Assembly: GCA_963768035.1 (NCBI GenBank)
Contig: CAVYGJ010000008.1
Span: forward strand, 26,710-90,709
From: an uncultured Chloroflexia bacterium
GTDB taxonomy: Bacteria; Chloroflexota; Limnocylindria; Limnocylindrales; CSP1-4
Direction: 5' to 3'
DNA: 64,000 nt
The notes under the pieces were generated by a model. The model was not told where the DNA came from, made no database searches, and was given only the letters and a program-made list of their open reading frames with translations. Below are positions 50,719 through 62,369 of this stretch, one piece after another. Numbering within the stretch: position 1 is the stretch's first letter; each line of letters begins with the position of its first letter. The position numbers and the translations under genes were made by a program.

Positions 50719-52068
50719 GTGATCGATCGTCTGCCGCCGCAATCCATCGAGGCCGAGCAGTCCGTGCTCGGCTCGATCCTCATCGACCGCGACGCGGTCA
50801 TCGAGGTCGCCGAGTTCCTCAAGGCGGACGACTTCTACCGCCAGGCGCACGGCAAGGTCTACGCGGTCATCCTGGGCCTGTTCGAGCGGCGCGAGCCCAT
50901 CGACATCGTCACCGTCGCCGAGGCGCTGGAGCGGGACGGCGACCTGGAGGCGGTCGGCGGTCGCGCGTACCTGGGCACACTCTCGAATTCCACGCCCACT
51001 GCCGTCCACGCGACGCAGTACGGGCGGATCGTCGAGCGCAAGGCCCTCCTTCGGAACCTCATCGGCGCCGCAGGCAAGATCGCCGGGATCGGCTACGAGG
51101 ATCCGGCCGAGATCGCGGAGGCCATCGATCGCGCGGAGGCCGAGCTGTTCGCGGTCAGCCAGCGCCGCGTGGCCGCCGGCTTCTCCCCGCTCAAGACGCT
51201 GCTCCACGACGCCTACGACCGGCTCGACTACCTCCACGCCCACCGGGGCGAGATCAGCGGCATCCGCAGCGGCTTCCAGGACCTGGACACGCTCACGACC
51301 GGCTTCCAGAAGAGCGACCTCGTGATCCTCGCGGCCCGTCCGTCTGTCGGCAAGACGAGCTTCGCGCTCAACATCGCGGAGCACGCGGCGGTCCACGACA
51401 AGAAGAGCGTCGGGATCTTCAGCCTCGAGATGAGCAAGGAGCAGCTCGTCCTGCGCCTGCTCTCGTCGGTGGCGAACATCGACTCCCAGCGGCTCCGGTC
51501 GGGGTTCCTCGAGGAGCTCGACTTCGCGCGGATCGCTCCCGCGATGAACACGCTGTCGGAGGCGCCGATCTACATCGACGACACGCCCAACATCACGACG
51601 ATGGAGCTGCGCACCAAGGCGCGCAGGCTCCAGGCCGAGTCGGGGCTCGACCTCGTGATCGTCGACTACCTCCAGCTCATGCAGTCCTCGACCACGACCC
51701 GCGATGCGAACCGTGTGCAGGAGGTCGCCGAGATCTCGCGCGGCCTGAAGGCGCTCGCGCGCGAGCTCAAGGTGCCGGTCATCGCCCTGTCCCAGCTCTC
51801 GCGCCAGCCGGAGATGCGCGAGTCGAAGGAGCCCCGGCTGTCCGACCTGCGCGAGTCCGGCTCGATCGAGCAGGACGCGGACCTCGTGACGTTCCTGTGG
51901 CGCGAGAAGGAGCGCGGCTCCGACGACCAGGTCACCGACGGCGAGGTCGTCAAGCTCAAGCTCGCGAAGCACCGCAACGGCCCCACCGGCGAGATCGACC
52001 TGTGGTTCAAGAAGGCCCAGACGCGCTTCGTGAACTACGCCGGGGAGCGCTTCGCCGACGTCAGCTAG
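50719..52068 (+). CDS. dnaB: Replicative DNA helicase (no intein)
   Basis: PPQSIEAEQSVLG, AARPSVGKT, FSLEMS, VDYLQLM, SDLRESGSIEQDAD and KHRNGPTG. Confidence 0.97.
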   Translation: MIDRLPPQSIEAEQSVLGSILIDRDAVIEVAEFLKADDFYRQAHGKVYAVILGLFERREPIDIVTVAEALERDGDLEAVGGRAYLGTLSNSTPTAVHATQYGRIVERKALLRNLIGAAGKIAGIGYEDPAEIAEAIDRAEAELFAVSQRRVAAGFSPLKTLLHDAYDRLDYLHAHRGEISGIRSGFQDLDTLTTGFQKSDLVILAARPSVGKTSFALNIAEHAAVHDKKSVGIFSLEMSKEQLVLRLLSSVANIDSQRLRSGFLEELDFARIAPAMNTLSEAPIYIDDTPNITTMELRTKARRLQAESGLDLVIVDYLQLMQSSTTTRDANRVQEVAEISRGLKALARELKVPVIALSQLSRQPEMRESKEPRLSDLRESGSIEQDADLVTFLWREKERGSDDQVTDGEVVKLKLAKHRNGPTGEIDLWFKKAQTRFVNYAGERFADVS

Positions 52069-53210: not shown

Positions 53211-53513
53211 GTGTTCCAGGATCGGTCGCTGACTTGCCGCGATTGCAGCGAGTCATTCGTGTTCTCGTCCGGCGAACAGGCATTCTTCGCGAGCAAGGGC
53301 CTCACCAACGATCCGCAGCGGTGCACGACATGCCGTGCCGCGGCGAAGACCGCGAGGAGCGCCAGTCCCGGCGGATCGCGCGAGTACCACGCGGCGATCT
53401 GCAACAGCTGTGGCGGCCAGGCGATGGTCCCGTTCCAGCCCCGGAACGACCGCCCCGTCTACTGCAGCACCTGCTTCGACAAGGTGAAGTCCGGGCCCGC
53501 CGTCACGGCCTGA
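53211..53513 (+). CDS. Zinc-ribbon / CxxC-x17-CxxC domain protein
   Basis: DRSLTCRDC..FSSGEQAFF..PQRCTTCR and CNSCG..VPFQP..RPVYCSTCF; GGAGGA RBS. Confidence 0.9.
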   Translation: MFQDRSLTCRDCSESFVFSSGEQAFFASKGLTNDPQRCTTCRAAAKTARSASPGGSREYHAAICNSCGGQAMVPFQPRNDRPVYCSTCFDKVKSGPAVTA

Positions 53514-53843: not shown

Positions 53844-53920
53844 CCCCCGCTGCGCGTTCGGCGATCGGGAGGCCAGTCCCAGATAAGTCCGCGGTGAGCC
53901 GCACAGGGCATCCTGCGCGC

Positions 53921-56900
53921 ATGGCCTCGCCCACGACGTCCCTCACCGGCCCAGCGCCTCGCGCGCCGCGGCCGAGCACGTCGCCCACGGCCGAGGATCG
54001 GGGGCCGCTCGAGCCCCCGCCCCCTCCCGCGCCGCTGCCGCTCGAGCAGCACCTCCGCAACTTGGGCAATCCGGCGGCGCTCGGGTCCGTATCATTCGCG
54101 CCCAGCGGAGTGCCGCATCCGGGGAACCCGGCGGCGGCGTCGGAGTGGGGAGCGGAGGGGCATGCGCTCATCGGCGTCGGACCCGGGCGGCCTGGACGCG
54201 GGCTTCGTGCGGGCCTGATGAGCCAGTACCCGTTCCCCATCACAGGCGCGAAGATCCATTCGCCCCTCCTGCGATCGGACACACTGTCGCGGCCGCGGCT
54301 CAACGACTGGCTGGACCGCGCAGCGGCGGGTCGCGTGGCGCTGATCGTCGCGGAGGCAGGGTTCGGGAAGACGACGCTGCTCGCGGACTGGGCGGCCCGG
54401 ACCCCACGTCGGATCGCGTGGTATCGACTCGAGCCCGATGACAAGGACTGGCTCGTCTTCCTGCGCCACCTGGTCGCCGCCGGTCGCGAGCTCGACCCCG
54501 ACTTCGCCGCCGACTCGCTGGAGCTGATCCTCGCGCTCGGGTCCGGCGGGCCGCAGCAGGAGGACATCGTCGCGTCGCTCGTGCGCGAGTACGGCGACTT
54601 CGCGGCGACGCAGCCCGATGGGCTGACCCTCATCCTCGACGACCACCACGCCATCGATGGCTCGACCGGAGACCGACGCGATCCTCCGGTCGCTCATCGA
54701 GCGGACGGGCAGCGGGTTCTCGATCGTCATCGCGTCACGCGCGGCGCCGAAGGTGCCCCTCGGCCGGCTGCGCGCACGAGGCGGCCTGAGCCGGATCGAG
54801 GGCGAGGACCTCTGCTTCGACGTCCCGGAGACGGACCGGCTGTTCCGCGAGGCCTACAACCGGCCGCTCGAGCCCGACATCGTCGCGGAGCTGATCAAGC
54901 GGACCGAGGGATGGGCCGCCCTCCTCACGCTCGTGCGCACGAGCCTCGAGGACAAGGACGCGCCCGAGGCCCGGGCCCTCGTCGCCCAGCTCAGCGCCAC
55001 CCACGGCGACCTGTACGACTTCCTCGCGGAAGAGGTGCTCGAGACGCTGTCGCCTTCGCAGCAGCGCTTCCTCACCCGAGTGTCGGTCCTCGTCTCGGTC
55101 GATGCGGAGACGGGCTCCCTCGTCGACGGCCGGCCGCCCGCCGAGCTCGCGCCAGTGATCGCCGAGGCCGAGACGCTCGGCCTCCTCACCCGTCCCGACC
55201 GCGAGTCCCCGCACCGCTTCCATCCCCTGGTCCGCGACTTCCTCGTCGCCCGCCTCCGCGAAGAAGTCGGCGACGCACGAGTCCGAGAGATGCACGCGAT
55301 GGTGGCCGAGGCATCTCGAGTTCCGGCGACTGGTACGGCTCAGCTTGGCACTACCGAGCGGCCGGCCGACGGTCATGGATGCGGAACGGGTAGTCGATGC
55401 AGCGGTTGGCGACATCATCGCAACTGGAACGTTTGAGCGCGCGGCGCCGTTTCTCGATGGGTCAGCAGGGTCGATTGATCGACCAGCTGCGCTGATCTTG
55501 CTCTCGCGGCTGGAGTTCGGTCGCGGTCAGATCGCGACGGCACTCCGACTCGCACGAACCGCGGTCGAGCGTTCATCAGGTATCCGCGTATTCGGCACCG
55601 CGCTGCTGAACCTAGCCTGGCCTGCAGGGCGTAGCGGGCTACAGTGACGACGGGGTTGCCCTGGCGACGCAAGCCTTGAGTGCCGACCTTCTGACTCCGA
55701 GCGGGCGATCGCTCAAGCGATCGTGTCACTCAGGACTCTCGCCGACGACGGTGATCTCGAGGAGGGTGCGGCGTTCCTTCGCAACCTCGCAAGCCAGCAG
55801 ATCCGAGATGGGCAACGACGGTACGCGGCTATTACGTTGCTTATCCTCTCCTCGGCCTTGACGTGGCTCGGTCGACCCAGCGAGGCGCTCGATGCTGCCA
55901 ATGCAGCGAGTGTCGAGATCCTCGCCAGTGGGGCTAGGGGCGTGGAGCTCGTGTCCATCCTGCTCGCCCGCGCGGCGGCATACCTTCACCTCGGCATGAG
56001 AGAGCGGGCCGAGTCGGCTCTGGCTGAGGCGGCGAGCGCGAGCTCCGACCTCACATCGGACGAGGTCCACCTCGAGACTGGTCGCCTGTTCGCGGCCCTC
56101 GGCGCGTTGGCGCCGGCAGAATCTCGCTCTGAGCAGGGTCGCCGAGGACGGCTTGGCCGATGGATATGCAACGATCTACGCAGCGTCAATGCTCTCCTTA
56201 GCAATTCGCAGGCGCACCCTCGACGAGTCAACGACCCGGCTCGAGATCCTCCGCCAGCATGCGAACACCGAGATCGCCGAGCCGACTGCAACTGGAGATC
56301 TTCGCGATCCGCGTCGCCCTGCTCCGTGGTGAGAACGCGACGTCTGCGATCGAGGCTGCGGCCACCCTTGCCAGGAGCAGCAGTCGAGGGTCGGTCGCGC
56401 GGCTCATGCAGTTGCTAGCTGACGTAAGTGACGAGCGGGCACACTGCACTCGTCGATCACCAGCATCCCGGACGAGCTCAGCTACTGCCTCTCACTCGTG
56501 GCTGAGGAAGTTGCTCACGCGGCTCACCGGCTGTCGCCCTCAGCGTCCGCACGCGTTCGTGACGAAGTTGAGCTTCGCCCTGATCGATGGCGTGAGGCGT
56601 TGCGGTCTGAGATTGAGCAAGGTGGCCTGAGCGCCTTGGCGTGCGCCGAGTTGCTGCTCGAGATTGGCACGAACGAGGATGCCGCAGCGCTCCGAGCAGT
56701 TGCCGCCAAGACAAAGGAGCTCCGTCCTGCCGCGCTAGCGACTCACGAATCGACTAGCCGAGCCAGTAGTCGTTCACGATCTCGGCCCAGTGACGGTAAG
56801 CCTGGGTGATACGACCGTTCGCATTGTTCGTCGCAAGGTGCTGGCGCTCCTGTGCTTCCTAATCACAAAGCCCAACATGGCGGCAACCCGCGACGAGATT

Positions 56901-57465
56901 CTTGAGGCCCTGTGGGCTGACCTGACTCCCGACACAGCAGGCAACTCACTGCACCAGACCATCTACTTCCTTCGGCGAATATTTGAACCGGACTTCCGAG
57001 AAGGGCTCAGCGCCAAGTACGTCAACTACGACGGTGAGATTGCCGGCCTCAATCGCCGATCGCGTGTCAAGTGACAGTCGCTCCTGCTGGAGGTCGATCG
57101 AGGCTGGCACAGCGGACGTGGCTGCGTTCACCGAGCTCCTCTCGACCTATCGCGGCCGCTTCGCGCTTGACTTCGCGTATGAGGAGTGGGCGACCGACTA
57201 CCGAGACACACTGCACGCGGCCGTGCTGTCGGCTGCGGAGGCCGCGGTCGTGCGGGCGACCAGCGAAGGCGATGTCGACACGGCAGTGCTCATCGCTCAG
57301 CGGATTCTCGAGGTCGATCCAGAGGCCGACGCGATCGAGGCGAGCCTTCTGCGAACGTACAGGGAGGCGGGCCGAACGGCCGCCGCGGCGGAACAGTACG
57401 CCCACTACTCGTCCGCGCTTCGCGACGATCTAGGCGTCGAGGCGCCGACCTTGGAGGATGTCTAG
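53921..57465 (+). CDS. Large regulator: MalT-like ATPase + TPR-like helices + C-terminal wHTH/BTAD (many frameshifts)
   Basis: KIHSP..RPRL, Walker A AEAGFGKTTLL, LILDDHH, RTEGWAA, YDFLAEEVL and RFHPLVRDFL. C-terminal DLGP, RRKVLALLCFL, RDEILEALW, NSLHQTIYFLRR and YRGRFALDFAYEEW. The start could also be 54218. Confidence 0.75.
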
Positions 57466-57530
57466 GATCGCGTGGCAGCCGGCAACGGCATCGCCACCCA
57501 CGTACCGGTGGGCATAGGTAGGGTTGCGTA

Positions 57531-57560
57531 TTGACCGGTGTAGACGGCCAAACCTAGAGT
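57531..57560 (+). promoter_or_regulatory. Sigma70-type promoter upstream of the riboswitch
   Basis: TTGACC-N18-TAGAGT. Confidence 0.55.
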
Positions 57561-57589
57561 ACGGCCTGCACTAGTACGAACGTACGGTG

Positions 57590-57676
57590 CATCAAGGAAA
57601 CGCTCGGACGCGCTGATACCACCACCTGAATTGGGCACTTAGGGTGGAGGTGGAGCGAGTAGTGCAACCGACCGAC
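57590..57676 (+). ncRNA. c-di-GMP-II-like riboswitch aptamer
   Basis: GGAAAC(57596)..AATTGGGCACTT(57629-57640)..GAGCGAGTAGTGCAACCGACC(57653-57673). GCACT/AGTGC pseudoknot pairing matches class-II hallmarks, and it lies upstream of an HD-GYP gene. Confidence 0.75.
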
Positions 57677-57697
57677 TTTCGAGTCTGGTCGGTTTTC
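57666..57697 (+). terminator. Riboswitch expression-platform terminator
   Basis: AACCGACC-GACT-ttcg-AGTC-t-GGTCGGTT-TT; its 5' arm overlaps the aptamer 3' end. Confidence 0.75.
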
Positions 57698-57736
57698 GTG
57701 TTCCTACGGACACGGAGGCCGCAAGGAGGAACGAGC

Positions 57737-57769
57737 GTGGCACCCAACAAAGGCCTCAAGGGCTGGTAG
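57737..57769 (+). CDS. Micro-ORF, 10 aa MAPNKGLKGW
   Basis: AAGGAGGA RBS 6 nt upstream of GTG. GTG GCA CCC AAC AAA GGC CTC AAG GGC TGG TAG. Shares LKG-aromatic with the next ORF. Confidence 0.55.
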   Translation: MAPNKGLKGW

Positions 57770-57790
57770 CAGGACTCGGAGGATCGACCG

Positions 57791-57882
57791 ATGAAGGATC
57801 GCCTCATGCGAGTCCTGGCTCTCGATTAGCGCAGTCGCCGCTGTTGGCGCTCGCTGGCGGGGCATCGCTAAAGGGCTTCTGT
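57791..57882 (+). CDS. Putative peptide-signal precursor, reconstructed MKDRLMRVLALISAVAALALAGGASLKGF (needs indel correction)
   Basis: GGAGGA RBS with ATG at 57791. As sequenced it stops at 57829, but consecutive frames read ISAVAA and LALAGGASLKGF followed by TG. Neighbouring genes are equally indel-rich. Confidence 0.5.
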
Positions 57883-57970
57883 CAGGGACTACACCTCAGT
57901 ACTCAAGTCCTCTTCACCCACTCGGGTGATGGGGCTAGAGTCCGCGCAAGTTGCGTGAACTGAGGTGCTG

Positions 57971-59387
57971 ATGCCGAGACAGCTGAAGCTCTACATCACT
58001 GGGGTCGTGGCAGTCGGCGCACTCGCGCTGGTCGTCACGACCCTTGTGATTCCCGTTGATCCGCTGATCGGCTGAGGGGTTCGGACGCACTCGGGCCTGC
58101 AGCCACAGCAGTTGGCTCTGCTCGTTCTGGACCCTGCGTCACCCTTGTCGCGTCGGCGCTGCCGGTGCCGGATGCCCCGCGGAACGATGGTCGGCGTATC
58201 CATCGCACCATCTGATCGCCGCAACAGCCCTTGGTGGCCCGACCGCCGGCGCCTGGGTCGCGCTCTTGGGACCACCGAGATGCGCGAGCTGCGCGGCCGC
58301 ATCCCTTGGTACGGAACGCTGGCAAATCACGCCGGCCTGCTGCTACCCACGTTCGCAGCGGGCATGGCTGATGCGCCTGTTCCACGTTCCGAGCGCTGAA
58401 GCCTCGGTGTTCGCTGACTCTCGTCGCCACGATGTTCGCGTCCGTCGTCTTCTTTGCTCTCAATGCGACGCTCATCAGCCACCCTCGTTGCCCTCCGCAC
58501 CGAGCAGCCCTTCGAGACCGTCCTGCTGGGTGACACTCGGGGCTTCGCGACCAGCCTCGTGGGCCTGCGCCCCGATCGGTTGGCTGATGTCACAGATGTA
58601 CGTGGTCGCGTGGTGGGCGAGCCTGTTGTTCGTCGTGCCGCTCTACACGACCCGGCTCGCGTACCACAACTTCATCGAGATGCGGGAGATGTTCACCCAG
58701 ACGATCACCGCGCTGGCCGGCGCGGTGGACAAGCGGGACCCGTACACGAGCAAGCACAGCTGGCGCGTGAAGGAGATCGCGGGGGACATCGGGCGGGCGA
58801 TGCGCCTGGGCGAGGCGGACCTCGAGGCGCTCGAGTGGGGCGGCCTGCTCCACGACGTCGGCAAGATCGGCGTGCCGGACAACGTGCTGCACAAGCAGGA
58901 GCGGCTCAACAAGGAAGAGCGGATGCTCATGAACGCGCACCCGGTGCTGGGCGCGCAGATCATCCAGCCGGTCACGCGGCTGTCCCGCGAGCTGCCGATC
59001 ATCCGCCACCACCACGAGTGGTACAACGGCTCGGGGTACCCGGACCGGCTCATCGGCGACGAGATCCCGCTGCTCGCGCGGATCCTCCACGTCGCGGACG
59101 CGTTCGAGGCCATGACCGCCCAGCGGCCGTACCGGATGACGCCGCTCACCGCAGAGCAGGCGCTCGGCGAGCTCCGCAAGTTCGCCGGCATCCAGTTCGA
59201 TCCCAAGGTCGTGGACGCGTTCGTCCGCACGACCTGGGTCGAGGGCGTGAACGACCCTGGCCGCACGGTCCAGTCCCGCCCGATCCCGATGATCAGCCAG
59301 CACGCGAACCGCGCGGCGGCCGTCCCCTCCCCCCTCGCCGTCAACAGCAATCTGCCGGTGCCGGGCTCGCCGGCCGACGTGTCCTGA
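57971..59387 (+). CDS. Membrane-sensor HD-GYP phosphodiesterase (N-terminal multi-TM domain frameshifted)
   Basis: GAGGTG RBS with MPRQLKLYITGVVAVG. TM segments VASALPVRMPRG..ALGGP..PWYGTLANHA. Catalytic motifs KRDPYTSKHS, LLHDVGKIG, HHHEWYNGSGYP and VADAFEAMT..RPYR. Confidence 0.88.
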
Positions 59388-59466: not shown

Positions 59467-61599
59467 ATGCTGATCGGCGGTATCGCGCTCGGACTGGTGC
59501 TGGGCCTCGTGCTCGGCGGCAGGCTCGACCGCCTGGCGGACATCCGCCTCCAGTACCTGCCGCTCCTGTTCCTCGCGGTCATCGTCCGCTTCGGGACGGA
59601 GATCCTGCTGGGCCGCGGCGTCGAGATCGTCGACACGCTCCGGATGCCGCTCCTCGGCACGGCCTACGGCCTCCTGCTGTTCACGCTGTGGCACAACCGG
59701 ACGTACCCGGGCCTCGCGCTCGCCTTCGTCGGCATCGCGAGCAACGGGCTCGTCATCCTCGTCAACGGCGGCCGGATGCCGGTCTGGATGGACGCCTACC
59801 GGCTGAGCGGCCTCACCGGCGACCTCAACTCGGTCCTCCACGTCCCGCTCGAGACGCTCGACGCGGAGTTCTTCCTCCGCCTCGGCCCGCTCGCGGACAT
59901 CATCCCGCTCCCCCTCCCGCCATTCCAGAACGTCGCGTCGATCGGCGACCTGTTCCTCACCGCGGGCCTCGGCTTCTTCCTGTTCGCGACGCTCCTGCGC
60001 ACGCCCGCCGAGGCACAGCAGGAGCTCGACGAGGCGCGCGAGGGACACCTCGTGGGCGTCAGCGGGACCGCCCGCCTCCGCGCACCCGGCGCCCATCCGG
60101 CCGGCACGGCGGCGACGATCCCGGCGAGCACCGGCCTCAGCCCGGCACTCGAGGAGTCGGCCGCGCTCGAACGGCCGCTCCGCCTCGGGTCGAGCGGGGC
60201 CGGCCTCGCCTCACCCGCCCTCAGCGTTCGTCCCGAGGCCGCGCTCGAGGGTGCCGGCACCGCCGGAACCGCGGGCGCAACCGCCGTCGGTGTCGGACGT
60301 CCCCGTCGCTCCACCCTCGCCAGGGTCCGCCGTCACCCGTACGTGCGCCTCGCGCTCAACGGCTCGTTCTCCGCGCTCTGGTTCGGCCAGCTCATCAGCC
60401 TGTTCGGCGACCGGGTCAACCAGATCGCCCTCATCTACTTCGTGTTCGAGATCACGAAGTCGCCGCTCCACGTGGCGCTGTTGTTCGTCGCGTTCAACGT
60501 GCCGAACCTGCTCTTCTCCCCGGTCGCGGGCGCCCTCGTGGACCGCTGGGATCACAAGCAGGTCCTCGTGGTGTCGGACATCCTCCGGGCATCGCTGGTG
60601 CTCCTCGTCCCGGTCGCGATCTCGATCAACATCTGGCTCGCCTACCCGATCGTGTTCCTGATCACGACCGTGTCGCTGTTCTTCCGACCCGCCCGGATCT
60701 CGATCCTCCCGCGCCTCGTCCGCGACGGCGAGCTGCTCTCGGCCAACTCGGCGATGTGGGTGGGCGAGACGATCGCGGACGTCGTCAACTACCCGCTCGC
60801 CGGCCTGTTCGTGCTGTTCCTCGGCAGCAGCGTGGCGTTGGCCTTCTGGTTCGACGCGGTGACCTACCTCGCCTCCGCCGTCCTGCTCGGGACGATGGTC
60901 GTCCCGCCGGTCGTCCGCCGGACGCGCGCCGCCGTCGACGCCTGGGGCGAGCCGGTCGAGGGCGCACCGGCCGAGCCCGCGGGCCCGCCGACCGTCGCCG
61001 ACATCCGACGCGACCTCAAGGAGGGCTGGGGCTTCCTGCGCACCGAGGCGACCCTCCTCGCGAACACGCTCCAGGGGACGGCGGCACAGTTCGCGGTCGG
61101 CGTCGTGACGGCCTTGAGCTTCATCATCGCGGAGCAGATCGATCCGACCACGAAGGCCGCCACCTACGCGTTCATGGAGACCGCGATCGGCGTGGGCAAC
61201 CTCGTCGGCGGCTTCGCGCTGGGGCTCATCGCGACGAGGGTGGCCAAGGGTCGGCTGATCATCGCCGCGTACACGATCTTCGGTTTGCTCGTGATCCTCG
61301 TGGGCTTCATCCCGACGCTCCCGGTGATGCTCGGGCTGATGTTCGGGATCGGCGTCGCGAACATGGCGTTCGTCATCCCCAGCCAGACGCTGTTCCAGGA
61401 GCGCACGCCGCCCGAGCTGATGGCACGTGTCGTGAGCTTCCGGTTCGCGCTCGTGTTCGGCGGGATGACGATCGCGACGACCTTCGCGGGCCTGGTGGCG
61501 AACGTGACCGGCGTCGGGCCGGTGATCGTGGTCGCGGGTCTCATCTCCGTCGTCGCCGGTCTCGCGGGCCTGTTCTTCAGCGCCGTCCGGGACGCCTGA
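59467..61599 (+). CDS. DUF5317-domain / MFS transporter fusion protein
   Basis: N-terminal GGRLDRLA, NGLVILVNGGRMPV, LADII and SIGD motifs of DUF5317, a low-complexity linker, then MFS_3-like FSALWFGQLISLFGD, GALVDRWDHK and QERTPPELMARV. One uninterrupted 710-aa ORF. Confidence 0.85.
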   Translation: MLIGGIALGLVLGLVLGGRLDRLADIRLQYLPLLFLAVIVRFGTEILLGRGVEIVDTLRMPLLGTAYGLLLFTLWHNRTYPGLALAFVGIASNGLVILVNGGRMPVWMDAYRLSGLTGDLNSVLHVPLETLDAEFFLRLGPLADIIPLPLPPFQNVASIGDLFLTAGLGFFLFATLLRTPAEAQQELDEAREGHLVGVSGTARLRAPGAHPAGTAATIPASTGLSPALEESAALERPLRLGSSGAGLASPALSVRPEAALEGAGTAGTAGATAVGVGRPRRSTLARVRRHPYVRLALNGSFSALWFGQLISLFGDRVNQIALIYFVFEITKSPLHVALLFVAFNVPNLLFSPVAGALVDRWDHKQVLVVSDILRASLVLLVPVAISINIWLAYPIVFLITTVSLFFRPARISILPRLVRDGELLSANSAMWVGETIADVVNYPLAGLFVLFLGSSVALAFWFDAVTYLASAVLLGTMVVPPVVRRTRAAVDAWGEPVEGAPAEPAGPPTVADIRRDLKEGWGFLRTEATLLANTLQGTAAQFAVGVVTALSFIIAEQIDPTTKAATYAFMETAIGVGNLVGGFALGLIATRVAKGRLIIAAYTIFGLLVILVGFIPTLPVMLGLMFGIGVANMAFVIPSQTLFQERTPPELMARVVSFRFALVFGGMTIATTFAGLVANVTGVGPVIVVAGLISVVAGLAGLFFSAVRDA

Positions 61600-61697: not shown

Positions 61698-62369
61698 ATG
61701 ACCGACCAGGAGCGTGACCCGGAGAGCGCCGCCGGCGCCGAGGGCACGACTGACACGCCCGCCGACGACGCCCCGACGGAGGCGATCGAGACGCCCGTCG
61801 CCGCGCCCGAACCCGAGCCGGTCGTCGAGGCCGAGCAGGCCGAGGTCGAGGCTGAGGTCGAGGCCGAAGCCGAGGTCGAGGCGGCCGCCGAGGCCGACGA
61901 CGAAGCCGACGCCGACGAGGTCGAAGCCGAGGCCGAGGCCGACGACGAAGCCGACGAGGCCGAGGCCGACGAGGCGCCGGTCGCCGCCGCAGCCGCCGGT
62001 GCGGCCGTCGCCGCCGGGGCCAGCCGCAAGACGCCGCGTGGCGCCCCCGCCAAGAAGCCCGCCGCCGCGCCGACCGTCTCGGAGCAGGCAGTCCGTGTCG
62101 ACGACCGCGCGTCGGGCATCTTCGTCCTCACGATCGTCGGCGTGTTCATCGCGATCTTCGTGTTCGCGATGCTGTTCGGCTACGGCAGCTTCTTCGGCAA
62201 CGTGTTCAAGGCGGCGCCGACGCCGACCCCCGTCGTGACGCCCGCTCCCTCGGCGAGCGCGTCCGCCTCCCCGAGCGCGTCCGCCGCGCCCAGCGTCTCC
62301 GTGGCACCCAGCGCCTCGCCGGTCGCCAGCCCGTCGGCGGCACCCTCTCCGAGCCCCTCGGCGAGCTGA
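61698..62369 (+). CDS. Single-TM protein with acidic E/A/D-rich N-terminus and Ser/Pro/Ala tail
   Basis: AGGAG RBS, low-complexity ends, and core SEQAVRVDDRAS plus TM. Confidence 0.7.
   Translation: MTDQERDPESAAGAEGTTDTPADDAPTEAIETPVAAPEPEPVVEAEQAEVEAEVEAEAEVEAAAEADDEADADEVEAEAEADDEADEAEADEAPVAAAAAGAAVAAGASRKTPRGAPAKKPAAAPTVSEQAVRVDDRASGIFVLTIVGVFIAIFVFAMLFGYGSFFGNVFKAAPTPTPVVTPAPSASASASPSASAAPSVSVAPSASPVASPSAAPSPSPSAS

What the first reader, a model, noticed from the sequence alone, without database searches (positions are those of the whole stretch)
57721..57882. Two tandem micro-ORFs sharing a C-terminal LKG-aromatic motif
Seen: AAGGAGGA-N6-GTG encodes MAPNKGLKGW* (57737-57769). 21 nt later GGAGGA-N7-ATG begins MKDRLMRVLAL..ISAVAA..LALAGGASLKGF, which needs two single-base corrections and a restored stop. 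Both are below the ORF-track cutoff. Inference: the long ORF is an exported precursor (basic n-region, hydrophobic h-region, AGGA cleavage zone, short tail). The 10-mer is a leaderless cytoplasmic copy of the mature tail that could act as intracellular ligand or antagonist for the adjacent TPR regulator, reminiscent of pheromone/inhibitor pairs in RRNPP systems.
Basis: partly seen in the sequence, partly recalled or inferred. Interest (0 to 1): 0.85.

Follow-up and report, generated by a model that had tools for sequence, protein, structure and literature searches.

The report
Riboswitch-controlled twin micro-peptide genes
Two tiny genes (10 and 29 codons) whose products end in the same few amino acids sit behind an RNA switch that senses cyclic-di-GMP and ahead of the enzyme that destroys it; they are conserved across a group of uncultured soil bacteria, which points to a peptide layer in second-messenger signalling.

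Summary
ORF1 (57737-57769, MAPNKGLKGW*) and the broken ORF2 (from 57791) both exist.

A c-di-GMP-II riboswitch (57597-57680, 62.1 bits) with a terminator lies just upstream, and a MASE9/HD-GYP c-di-GMP phosphodiesterase gene lies just downstream. The upstream "TPR regulator" is a MalT-like STAND ATPase with a SARP DNA-binding end.

The whole cassette recurs in two families of one uncultured Chloroflexota class, in 92 distinct leaders.
- ORF2 shows codon periodicity and looks like a signal peptide.
- ORF1 keeps only its start, its frame and the tail hydrophobic-K-x-W/F.
- In three species ORF1 is an in-frame tandem repeat of that unit.
- In several lineages the last five residues of the two ORFs are identical and change together.

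I read them as riboswitch-gated, trans-acting peptides with a common, unidentified partner. A purely cis-acting leader role is the main rival.

The window's ORF2 lesions are probably assembly indels. ORF2 is already deposited as "hypothetical protein". This scan met the same operon before on other genomes (three notes).

The parts
53894..57465 (+). Large regulator gene, split over several frames in this window. It encodes a MalT-like STAND ATPase (AAA_16), a helical/TPR-like sensor, and Trans_reg_C plus BTAD (SARP-type DNA-binding end).
   Evidence: Pfam on the pieces. tblastn with the intact 1195-aa orthologue P0010 puts the window's pieces in frames 2, 3, 1, 3, 1. The orthologue's residues 124-492 match MalT 8bob at E 4e-24. 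BTAD lies upstream and co-oriented in 59 of 66 loci. Pfam shows BTAD in 3 of the remaining f4 loci.
57513..57560 (+). Promoter P1. A conserved upstream box CATAGGTAGGGTTGCGTA is followed by -35 TTGACC (57531-57536), 18 nt, and -10 TAGAGT (57555-57560).
   Evidence: Promoter scan: 1 site found against 0.1 expected. The box, -35 and -10 are nearly invariant in 25 genus loci and kept in other genera. Function is inferred.
57567..57591 (+). 5' leader hairpin (GCACUAGUAC-GAAC-GUACGGUGC).
   Evidence: MFE fold. The lower stem changes in a compensatory way in other genera while GUAC..GUAC is kept, read. No formal covariation count was made.
57597..57680 (+). c-di-GMP-II riboswitch aptamer.
   Evidence: RF01786, 62.1 bits against a gathering score of 53.5, E 1.6e-13, full model 1-84. 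It is the only hit above cut-off in the own genome.
57667..57702 (+). Terminator-like hairpin (ACCGACCGAC / GUCUGGUCGGU) followed by UUUUCGUGUU. Its 5' arm overlaps the aptamer's P1 3' strand (57672-57680).
   Evidence: Read. It forms in the MFE fold. The stem is conserved with variable loops in other genera. The simple terminator scan did not list it, because the stem is bulged. The ON-switch logic is inferred.
57723..57769 (+). SD1 (AAGGAGGA) plus ORF1, GTG 57737 to TAG 57769, encoding MAPNKGLKGW*.
   Evidence: ORF1 was called in 85 of 92 distinct leaders. Lengths were 9 or 10 codons in 81 of the 85, 8 in one, and 24, 28 and 37 in three tandem-repeat forms. The tail hydrophobic-K-[GSPA]-[WF] is kept in both families.
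57778..57882 (+). SD2 (GGAGGA) plus ORF2, ATG 57791. In this assembly it is broken: stop at 57827-57829, about 2 extra bases, and TGT in place of the stop at 57880-57882. Orthologues encode the 29-aa MKDRLMRxLAALxAVAAxALAGGASL[KR]GF*.
   Evidence: Codon-position entropy is 15.1/7.4/33.2. Near-identical short-read contigs carry gaps against the window only beyond 57818.
57894..57965 (+). Spacer between ORF2 and the HD-GYP gene. It holds CCUCAGU (57894-57900), which can pair with ACUGAGG (57959-57965, covering the HD-GYP SD), and TTCACC-17 nt-TAGAGT (57913-57941), a possible internal promoter P2.
   Evidence: Alignment and alifold. Cognate 5'/3' duplex energy is -16.7 kcal/mol against -14.4 for non-cognate pairs, which is weak. 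The TAGAGTCC hexamer and discriminator equal those of P1. Both readings are inferred and unresolved.
57971..59387 (+). MASE9/HD-GYP c-di-GMP phosphodiesterase gene (MPRQLKLYI...). The N-terminal part is frameshifted in this assembly.
   Evidence: HD_5 at E 1.4e-40. MASE9 is found in orthologues. tblastn frames are 2 then 3, with 39% identity in the N-terminal part against 89% in the C-terminal part. A long frame with this N-terminus follows ORF2 in 61 of 66 loci.
59467..61599 (+). DUF5317 + MFS (MFS_1/MFS_3) fusion membrane protein. It is the next gene on the same strand and is intact.
   Evidence: Pfam. It is in the same position in L059/L080. It was not examined outside the genus.

Best explanation
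The flagged stretch is the translated leader of a c-di-GMP-gated operon of an uncultured Chloroflexota lineage.

Shown:
- A class-II c-di-GMP riboswitch with a terminator-like hairpin is followed by two real micro-genes, each with its own strong Shine-Dalgarno site.
- Next come a MASE9/HD-GYP phosphodiesterase gene and a DUF5317-MFS gene.
- A MalT-like STAND/SARP regulator gene always lies just upstream.
- ORF2 is under protein-level purifying selection.
- ORF1 keeps its frame, its start and its tail.
- Both products end in hydrophobic-[KR]-G-[WF].

Inferred:
1. c-di-GMP binding holds the strand that would otherwise form the terminator. High c-di-GMP therefore switches on ORF1, ORF2 and read-through into the phosphodiesterase gene, giving negative feedback.
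2. ORF2 is a Sec-type precursor. Its last 5-8 residues (GGASLKGF or SLKGF) are released outside the cell.
3. ORF1 supplies the same tail inside the cell, or after cleavage of multi-copy forms.
4. Both tails act in trans on one common partner. Candidates are the sensor domain of the adjacent STAND regulator or the membrane sensor of the phosphodiesterase.
5. ORF2 translation may also unmask the phosphodiesterase's ribosome-binding site.

In this window ORF2 is broken, most likely by assembly indels.
For: Riboswitch: RF01786 at 62.1 bits, E 1.6e-13. The terminator arm overlaps P1.

ORF2 conservation and spread:
- Intact 29 codons in 22 of 25 genus loci.
- An ORF2 profile hits 52 of 70 genomes of the genus.
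- It hits 83 of 301 genomes of the class: f1 51/91, f4 27/103, f3 5/92, f2 0/12.
- In a phylum sample it hits 23 of 401 genomes, all in f1 (13/23) or f4 (10/16).
- Of 20 loci picked by the ORF2 hit alone, 17 carry RF01786 above cut-off just upstream on the same strand.

Coding signal: ORF2 entropy by codon position is 15.1/7.4/33.2.

ORF1:
- Called in 85 of 92 distinct leaders. Lengths were 9 or 10 codons in 81 of those 85, while the ORF1-ORF2 spacer varies from 2 to 33 nt.
- Forms as short as 6 codons (MTLKPW*, MVIKAW*) keep the tail.
- In three species it is an in-frame tandem repeat: MESTSVTKGW(TVLAVTKGW)x3, MEIQSVTKGF(TSVTKGF)x2 and MEILAITKGW-SLLSITKGW-GIRSITKGW. The periods are 27, 21 and 27 nt. 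The third has only 80% DNA matches, yet ITKGW is kept in every unit.

Tails move together:
- 8 of 76 distinct tail pairs are identical over the last 5 residues: SLKGF, SLKGW x3, SIKGW, SAKGF and TLKGF x2.
- Mean identity is 2.22 against 2.04 in shuffles, and 1 of 5000 shuffles reaches the observed value.

Stop codons: ORF1 uses TGA in 2 of 85 leaders, against 65% of 1836 long frames of the genome. That fits a need for an exact C-terminus.

Synteny: the regulator lies upstream in 59 of 66 loci and the HD-GYP gene follows in 61 of 66.

Assembly errors: short-read contigs nearly identical to the window show 0 gaps over 57716-57818 but 4 gaps over 57716-57904.
Against: - No experiment, Ribo-seq or peptide data exist for this uncultured group.
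- No signal-peptide predictor was available. The hydrophobic core could equally be a membrane anchor.
- No partner is identified.
- In the window's own genus the tails usually differ (FKGW against LKGF or LRGF, 0-3 of 5 identical). A common receptor is therefore not forced.
- The shuffle test ignores relatedness, so its 1 in 5000 overstates the case.
- ORF1 shows no codon periodicity (6.6/6.0/4.9). Conservation concentrated next to the stop codon is also what a ribosome-arrest leader would show.
- The hairpin's U-tract is short (4 U), and in family f4 it is weaker. Control might be translational rather than by termination.
- The window's lesions sit in a 4.5-kb stretch full of frameshifts. That could be real decay.
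Confidence: 0.5

Rival explanations
1. The two ORFs are purely cis-acting translated leaders. Ribosomes translating them, perhaps pausing at the conserved K-G-W/F-stop, set the translation of the next cistron. ORF2 translation melts the helix that hides the HD-GYP Shine-Dalgarno site. The peptides have no role once released.
For: - The position fits: the ORFs lie between a riboswitch and the main gene.
- The ORF2 stop lies 0-17 nt before the 5' strand of a helix that covers the HD-GYP SD. That helix is CUCAGU/ACUGAG in the genus and GUACG/CGUAC in other genera.
- Cognate duplexes are 2.4 kcal/mol better than non-cognate ones.
- ORF1 conservation is confined to the residues next to the stop, as in arrest peptides.
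- In L043 the ORF1 stop is 2 nt from the ORF2 start.
- A precedent exists for riboswitch-controlled uORFs that are needed for the main gene, in M. tuberculosis ppe2 (PMC11260477, abstract only).
Against: - ORF2's whole signal-like sequence is conserved across two families with synonymous turnover. A coupling uORF does not need that.
- A 29-residue chain would still lie inside the ribosome tunnel, so it cannot work as a Sec-monitoring arrest peptide.
- In-frame multi-copy ORF1 forms keep the tail in each diverged unit.
- The two tails change in step.
- ORF1-ORF2 spacing varies from 2 to 33 nt, which argues against a fixed stalled-ribosome geometry.
- The helix support is weak, and the same spacer may hold a promoter.
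Confidence: 0.22
2. ORF2 is not cleaved. It is a single-pass membrane micro-protein that modulates the neighbouring MASE9/HD-GYP enzyme (or the DUF5317-MFS protein) within the membrane. ORF1 is a soluble competitor or helper.
For: - ORF2 sits directly upstream of a membrane-sensor gene in 61 of 66 loci.
- MASE9 has been proposed to bind its ligand within the membrane (bioRxiv 10.1101/2021.11.05.467447, passages only).
- Membrane-associated small proteins behind c-di-GMP riboswitches are known in C. difficile (PMC13724677).
Against: - The most conserved part of ORF2 is the extramembrane tail AGGAS-x-[KR]-G-[FW], not a helix face.
- The hydrophobic core is only about 14 residues.
- ORF1 shares the tail but has no hydrophobic segment.
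Confidence: 0.15
3. In this particular genome the cassette is a decaying pseudogene cluster. The frameshifts in the regulator, ORF2 and the HD-GYP N-terminus would then be real mutations, not assembly errors.
For: - At least 4 frame changes in the regulator, 3 lesions in ORF2 and a frame change in HD-GYP all fall within 54.1-58.6 kb. The flanking DnaB-like gene and the MFS gene are intact.
- No run held more than 0.23 of the sampled words, so the source reads were not examined.
Against: - Short-read contigs from three runs differ from the window by 1-8 substitutions each. They carry 4-7 gap positions exactly where the lesions lie, and none over 57716-57818.
- The riboswitch, both SDs and ORF1 are untouched.
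- In the genus, partial or split ORF2 hits were mostly in few-contig genomes (G000, G025, G076, G078, G080, G083, G087, G088, G090), several with modest completeness. That is a pattern typical of indel-rich long-read assemblies.
Confidence: 0.2
4. The ORFs are chance open frames in a non-coding leader.
For: Within the window alone the SD+start motifs are not beyond chance.
Against: - Conservation of frame, length, start, SD and tail in 85-92 distinct leaders from two families.
- Codon periodicity in ORF2.
Confidence: 0.01

Closest known systems
C. difficile CD1980.2 family: small membrane-associated proteins encoded behind c-di-GMP riboswitches (PMC13724677, Nat Commun 2026; abstract and sections 7 and 14 read)
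   Same: Small unannotated or 'hypothetical' proteins are the direct cargo of c-di-GMP riboswitches that act by transcription termination. The proteins have a hydrophobic segment and no known domain.
   Different: - That family is 58 aa, multicopy, sits behind class-I OFF switches, promotes sporulation, and is reported to have no homologues outside C. difficile.
- Here there is a class-II, probably ON, switch and a pair of ORFs of 6-10 and 29-32 aa that share a tail.
- The pair lies in an operon with a phosphodiesterase, next to a STAND regulator, in Chloroflexota.
- The sequences could not be compared, because the paper's alignment figure and supplements are not held.
Class-II c-di-GMP riboswitch (Rfam RF01786). 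The C. difficile class-II ON switches before pilin and adhesin genes are recalled, not read here.
   Same: The aptamer scores above the curated cut-off. The terminator competes with P1, so an ON switch is expected.
   Different: - The cargo is two micro-peptide genes followed by the enzyme that degrades the ligand.
- The host is Chloroflexota.
RRNPP peptide signalling (PlcR-PapR, PrgX with cCF10/iCF10, Rgg-SHP, AimR-AimP); recalled, no call
   Same: A short secreted precursor gene lies beside a repeat-containing cytoplasmic regulator. The active part is the extreme C-terminus. A second peptide has a related tail, as in the pheromone/inhibitor pair.
   Different: - The regulator is a MalT-like STAND ATPase with a SARP DNA-binding end, not an RRNPP fold.
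- ORF1 has no export signal.
- Both peptides are gated by a riboswitch.
- No import system was identified and no binding was shown.
Riboswitch-controlled translated uORFs upstream of M. tuberculosis metE and ppe2 (PMC11260477; abstract and outline read)
   Same: Short translated ORFs lie between a riboswitch and the main gene and modulate its expression.
   Different: Here the peptide sequences are themselves conserved, share a tail, and occur as multi-copy repeats.
MalT, the E. coli maltose regulon activator (PDB 8bob)
   Same: The regulator's nucleotide-binding/oligomerisation module matches at E 4e-24 over residues 124-492. It has a long helical sensor region, like MalT.
   Different: - The C-terminal DNA-binding part is Trans_reg_C + BTAD (SARP type) instead of LuxR type.
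- The ligand is unknown.
Multi-copy peptide precursors (yeast alpha-factor, multi-core RiPP precursors); recalled
   Same: Tandem in-frame units each end in the conserved motif in 3 of 92 leaders.
   Different: - No processing enzyme is encoded nearby.
- The units are 7-9 residues long.
- The precursor has no signal sequence.

Membership tests
c-di-GMP-II riboswitch (RF01786) | Covariance-model score above the curated gathering score over the full model | tested here: met
   62.1 bits against 53.5, model positions 1-84, E 1.6e-13.
c-di-GMP-II riboswitch (RF01786) | Binds c-di-GMP and changes expression of the downstream genes | not testable with these tools
   Only the overlap of the P1 3' strand (57672-57680) with the terminator 5' arm (57667-57676) is seen.
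RRNPP peptide-sensing regulators | The receptor is an RRNPP-type TPR protein (HTH-TPR or phosphatase-TPR) | tested here: not met
   The regulator has AAA_16, TPR-like repeats, Trans_reg_C and BTAD. Its only PDB match is MalT.
RRNPP peptide-sensing regulators | A small precursor gene lies next to the receptor gene, and the active peptide comes from its C-terminal end | tested here: inconclusive
   Adjacency holds in 59 of 66 loci. The C-terminal tail is the most conserved part. Processing is unknown.
RRNPP peptide-sensing regulators | The peptide binds the receptor after re-import | not tested
   No binding test was made with the regulator and no oligopeptide permease was looked for.
Sec signal peptide with a signal peptidase I site | Basic n-region, hydrophobic h-region, small residues at -3 and -1 | tested here: inconclusive
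   By inspection of A1 and A3: M-K/R-x-R..R, a 14-residue core, then A-L-A|G-G or G-G-A|S. No predictor was available.
Riboswitch-coupled leader uORF (cis-acting) | The uORF lies between the aptamer and the main ORF, and its translation unmasks the main ORF's SD | tested here: inconclusive
   The position criterion is met. A helix over the HD-GYP SD is present, with only 2.4 kcal/mol of cognate advantage.
Riboswitch-coupled leader uORF (cis-acting) | The peptide sequence is free to drift, and only translation matters | tested here: not met
   ORF2 is under purifying selection. The tails are conserved and repeated.
C. difficile CD1980.2 small-protein family | Sequence homology to the 58-aa proteins | not tested
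   Their sequences are not held (figure and supplements). The paper states there are no homologues outside C. difficile. Lengths differ: 29-32 aa against 58 aa.
Any curated protein family for ORF2 | Match to a Pfam or NCBIfam model | tested here: not met
   0 families at E up to 10 in Pfam and up to 1 in NCBIfam, for a 29-aa and a 32-aa form.

The most novel reading that the evidence does not exclude
The cell turns its internal c-di-GMP level into a peptide signal. The riboswitch gates a secreted oligopeptide (the ORF2 tail) together with a leaderless, sometimes multi-copy, twin (ORF1) that carries the same tail inside the producer. Both are read by the sensor domain of a MalT-like STAND/SARP activator. 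That would be a peptide-sensing regulator class unrelated to RRNPP, letting a cell tell its own signal from its neighbours' and feeding back on c-di-GMP breakdown.
Probability: 0.15. Interest if true: 0.9.

Novelty: new variant of a known kind. Interest (0 to 1): 0.72.

Why it matters
Riboswitches are usually read as switches for enzymes, transporters or adhesins. Here the first and best-conserved cargo of a c-di-GMP riboswitch is a pair of peptides of 6-10 and 29-32 residues with a common tail. They are flanked by a large signal-sensing regulator and by the enzyme that removes the ligand.

If the peptides act in trans, this links second-messenger signalling to peptide signalling in a phylum with no known peptide communication. 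It would also suggest candidate ligands for two orphan sensor modules, the MASE9 domain and the sensor arm of a MalT-like STAND protein.

The finding also shows that 10-codon genes can be recognised by comparative signals: a fixed frame, avoidance of the leaky TGA stop, in-frame repeat expansion, and tails that change together.

For annotation, the frameshifts here should be treated as probable assembly errors, not as decay.

Tried and rejected
- Complex prediction of ORF2 (alignment A3) with the MASE9 part of the HD-GYP protein (A2, residues 1-240): score 0.01 against a mark of 0.32, no verdict, controls not run. This counts neither for nor against binding.
  - An exact look-up instead found ORF2 sequences already deposited, called 'hypothetical protein' or unnamed; one form occurs on 21 contigs.
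  - The protein atlas gave only unnamed 29-32-aa clusters.
- Pfam and NCBIfam: no family for ORF2.
- General C-terminal tag idea: only 7 of 16135 stop-to-stop frames of at least 120 aa in the genome end in [KR]G[FW]. Rejected.
- SD+start motifs within the window alone are not beyond chance.
- Sequencing runs: no run held more than 0.23 of the sampled words.
  - The laid records are contigs, so the high word depth of RNA run X17 over the riboswitch (515-2031, against 8-13 downstream) sums other organisms. It is not used as evidence of expression or termination.
  - The positions of the gaps in the near-identical contigs were not printed.
- ORF2-to-HD-GYP spacer: I could not decide between an SD-masking RNA helix and an internal promoter.
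  - TTCACC-17-TAGAGT scores 8 of 12, below the scan's threshold.
  - The conserved TAGAGTC sits in stems, loops or internal loops in different genera, which favours a DNA-level motif. A -35 element is not conserved outside the genus.
- Rfam at E up to 10 finds no known family in the spacer.
- Residue-for-residue covariation of the tails is not general. In the window's genus the tails mostly differ.
- Literature: searches for 'DUF5317' and for 'Limnocylindria' with 'c-di-GMP' found no paper. Searches combining c-di-GMP-II riboswitch, small ORF, HD-GYP, Chloroflexi, leader peptide and uORF found no description of this operon in the held library. Supplements are closed and were not seen.
Full report
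**What is in the window**

- AAGGAGGA (57723-57730), six bases, then GTG at 57737, and the frame MAPNKGLKGW ends at TAG 57767-57769.
- Twenty-one bases later comes GGAGGA (57778-57783), seven bases, then ATG at 57791. That frame stops at TAG 57827-57829 after 12 codons.
- Within this window alone such SD+start motifs are not beyond chance. The case rests on comparison with relatives.

Rfam places a class-II c-di-GMP riboswitch at 57597-57680 on the same strand (62.1 bits against a cut-off of 53.5, E 1.6e-13, full model). It is the only hit above cut-off in this genome.

The elements around it are:
- **Promoter.** A promoter-like site, TTGACC-18-TAGAGT (57531-57560), precedes the riboswitch. 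The scan found 1 site against 0.1 expected.
- **Terminator-like hairpin.** ACCGACCGAC/GUCUGGUCGGU plus UUUUCGUGUU (57667-57702) follows. Its 5' arm overlaps the aptamer's closing helix (57672-57680). It forms in the unconstrained fold.
- **Inferred logic.** I infer an ON switch: the bound ligand holds that strand, the terminator cannot form, and transcription runs on.
- **Downstream genes.** ATG 57971 opens a MASE9/HD-GYP c-di-GMP phosphodiesterase gene (HD_5 at E 1.4e-40; MASE9 in orthologues). A DUF5317-MFS fusion gene follows at 59467-61599.
- **Upstream gene.** The "TPR regulator" has AAA_16, a long helical/TPR-like region, Trans_reg_C and BTAD. Its ATPase module matches MalT (8bob, E 4e-24).

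**Relatives**

Record titles of related loci name uncultured Chloroflexota and 'Candidatus Limnocylindrales' MAGs.
- RF01786 is found in 32 of 61 related genomes: 31 of 36 in the genus and 0 of 24 in a small-genome sister family.
- In 25 aligned genus loci the order is the same throughout: promoter, riboswitch, hairpin, SD, ORF1, SD, ORF2, spacer, HD-GYP.
- ORF1 has 10 codons in 23 of 25. ORF2 is an intact 29-codon frame in 22 of 25.
- The window differs from the alignment by one extra base near 57824-57826, one extra T near 57844-57845, and TGT for the stop at 57880-57882.

**Are they genes?**

*ORF2.* Entropy by codon position is 15.1/7.4/33.2 over 22 sequences, and the C-terminal half varies almost only at third positions.
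- A profile of ORF2 hits 52 of 70 genomes of the genus.
- It hits 83 of 301 genomes of the class: f1 51/91 in many genera, f4 27/103, f3 5/92, f2 0/12. One weak hit is in a genome marked unpublished.
- It hits 23 of 401 genomes sampled across the phylum, all in f1 or f4.
- Of 20 loci fetched only because of an ORF2 hit, 17 have the riboswitch above cut-off just upstream.
- ORF2 matches no Pfam or NCBIfam model. Some copies are already deposited as 29-aa 'hypothetical protein'.

*ORF1.* It shows no periodicity (6.6/6.0/4.9). Over 92 distinct leaders it was called in 85, with lengths of 9 or 10 codons in 81 of those 85. The spacer to ORF2 ranges from 2 to 33 nt.
- Its constant parts are the SD, the start (GTG in f1, ATG in f4) and the tail hydrophobic-K-[GSPA]-[WF] before the stop.
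- Two divergent genera have 6-codon forms, MTLKPW* and MVIKAW*.
- ORF1 uses TGA in 2 of 85 leaders. By contrast, 65% of 1836 long frames of this genome end in TGA.

**The tail**

ORF2 ends in AGGAS-[LFI]-[KR]-G-[FW] in both families. In f4 both ORFs end in KGW.

Three further observations argue that the tail is selected as a peptide.
1. **Tandem repeats.** In three species ORF1 is an in-frame tandem repeat in which every unit ends in the tail: MESTSVTKGW(TVLAVTKGW)x3, MEIQSVTKGF(TSVTKGF)x2 and MEILAITKGW-SLLSITKGW-GIRSITKGW.
   - The periods are 27, 21 and 27 nt.
   - The third array has only 80% DNA matches, yet every unit keeps ITKGW.
2. **Tails change in step.** Of 76 distinct tail pairs, 8 are identical over the last five residues. 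These include rare states present in both ORFs: SAKGF/SAKGF, SIKGW/SIKGW, and TLKGF/TLKGF beside SLKGF/SLKGF within one genus.
   - Mean identity is 2.22 against 2.04 in shuffles, and 1 of 5000 shuffles reaches it.
   - The shuffle ignores relatedness, so this is a hint, not a probability.
   - In the window's own genus the tails usually differ (FKGW against LKGF or LRGF).
3. **No general tag.** The tail is not a general C-terminal tag in this genome (7 of 16135 long frames).

**How it most likely works**

ORF2 has a basic start, a 14-residue hydrophobic core and small residues at ALA|GG or GGA|S. By inspection this is a Sec-type precursor that would release the last 5-8 residues. ORF1 offers the same tail without an export signal. 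I therefore read both as trans-acting peptides with one partner.
- Two candidate partners are fixed neighbours. The regulator lies upstream in 59 of 66 loci, plus f4 loci confirmed by Pfam. The HD-GYP gene follows in 61 of 66.
- MASE9 has been proposed to bind its ligand within the membrane (bioRxiv 10.1101/2021.11.05.467447, passages only).
- None of this is shown. One complex prediction gave no verdict and is listed only under what was tried.

**The main rival**

The main rival is a purely cis-acting leader role.
- The ORF2 stop lies just before a strand that can pair over the HD-GYP SD: CUCAGU/ACUGAG in the genus, GUACG/CGUAC elsewhere. The cognate advantage is only 2.4 kcal/mol.
- The same spacer holds TAGAGTCC, which equals the -10 and discriminator of P1. 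It may be an internal promoter.
- Riboswitch-controlled uORFs that modulate the main gene are known in M. tuberculosis (PMC11260477, abstract).
- Conservation of the whole ORF2 sequence, the repeat forms and the matching tails are not expected for a mere coupling uORF.

**State of this copy**

The regulator lies in frames 2, 3, 1, 3, 1, and the HD-GYP N-terminal part is also shifted.
- No run held the stretch well; the best held 0.23 of the sampled words.
- Short-read contigs nearly identical to the window show 0 gaps over 57716-57818 (X17, 1 substitution). They show 4 gaps over 57716-57904 (X1, 2 substitutions). They show 7 gaps over each of 57790-57993 and 57789-58072.
- In the genus, partial or split ORF2 hits were mostly in few-contig genomes, this one included.
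- I take the lesions as assembly indels at about 0.75. The positions of the gaps were not printed, so this is not proven.

**Known relatives of the idea**

- The nearest published case is the C. difficile family of 58-aa membrane-associated proteins behind class-I c-di-GMP OFF switches (PMC13724677; abstract and sections 7 and 14 read).
- No paper in the held library describes the present operon. Supplements could not be seen.
- Three earlier notes of this scan describe the same operon on other genomes. They agree with this reading, but they are not independent evidence.

Noticed in passing
window 54100-58650: The frameshifts are concentrated here: at least 4 in the regulator, 3 lesions in ORF2 and a frame change in the HD-GYP N-terminus. 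Flanking genes (DnaB-like 50719-52068, MFS 59467-61599) are in single frames.
   Followed up: partly
G000:C7:123644-123722 (L002); L094, L095 and many sub-threshold hits: A second, lower-scoring kind of c-di-GMP-II-like element (29-50 bits) occurs up to 10 times per related genome, sometimes in arrays 0.6-3 kb apart (for example G021:C243, G013:C5, G027:C7). In the two relatives examined (L094, L095) it precedes genes with signal-peptide-like starts. In L002 (own genome) the first bases downstream open no clear frame and no signal-like start was seen.
   Followed up: partly
window 57567-57591 and the same place in relatives: A leader hairpin has invariant GUAC..GUAC at the top and a lower stem that changes in a compensatory way between genera. 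An AGUAC motif recurs just after the ORF2 stop in many genera.
   Followed up: partly
window 57513-57530: A nearly invariant box, CATAGGTAGGGTTGCGTA, abuts the -35 of P1 across genera of family f1. It is a likely operator for the adjacent SARP-type regulator. Family f4 has a different upstream sequence.
   Followed up: no
L066 (2.5-kb contig of a MAG titled Sphingomicrobium sp.): This contig carries the Chloroflexota ORF1 tail, ORF2 and the HD-GYP gene. It is probably a mis-binned contig rather than gene transfer.
   Followed up: no
window 53211-53513: A 100-aa protein with two treble-clef zinc-finger domains (zf_Tbcl, zf_Tbcl_2) lies just upstream of the regulator.
   Followed up: no
window 61698-62369: This ORF has a long acidic Glu/Ala-rich region, one hydrophobic segment and a Pro/Ser/Ala-rich tail. 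It was not submitted to any family search here.
   Followed up: no
L108 (G262): ORF1 ends in KGC instead of KGF or KGW (MGPEFGTKGC*). This is one base away from either usual ending and may be an error or a true variant.
   Followed up: no
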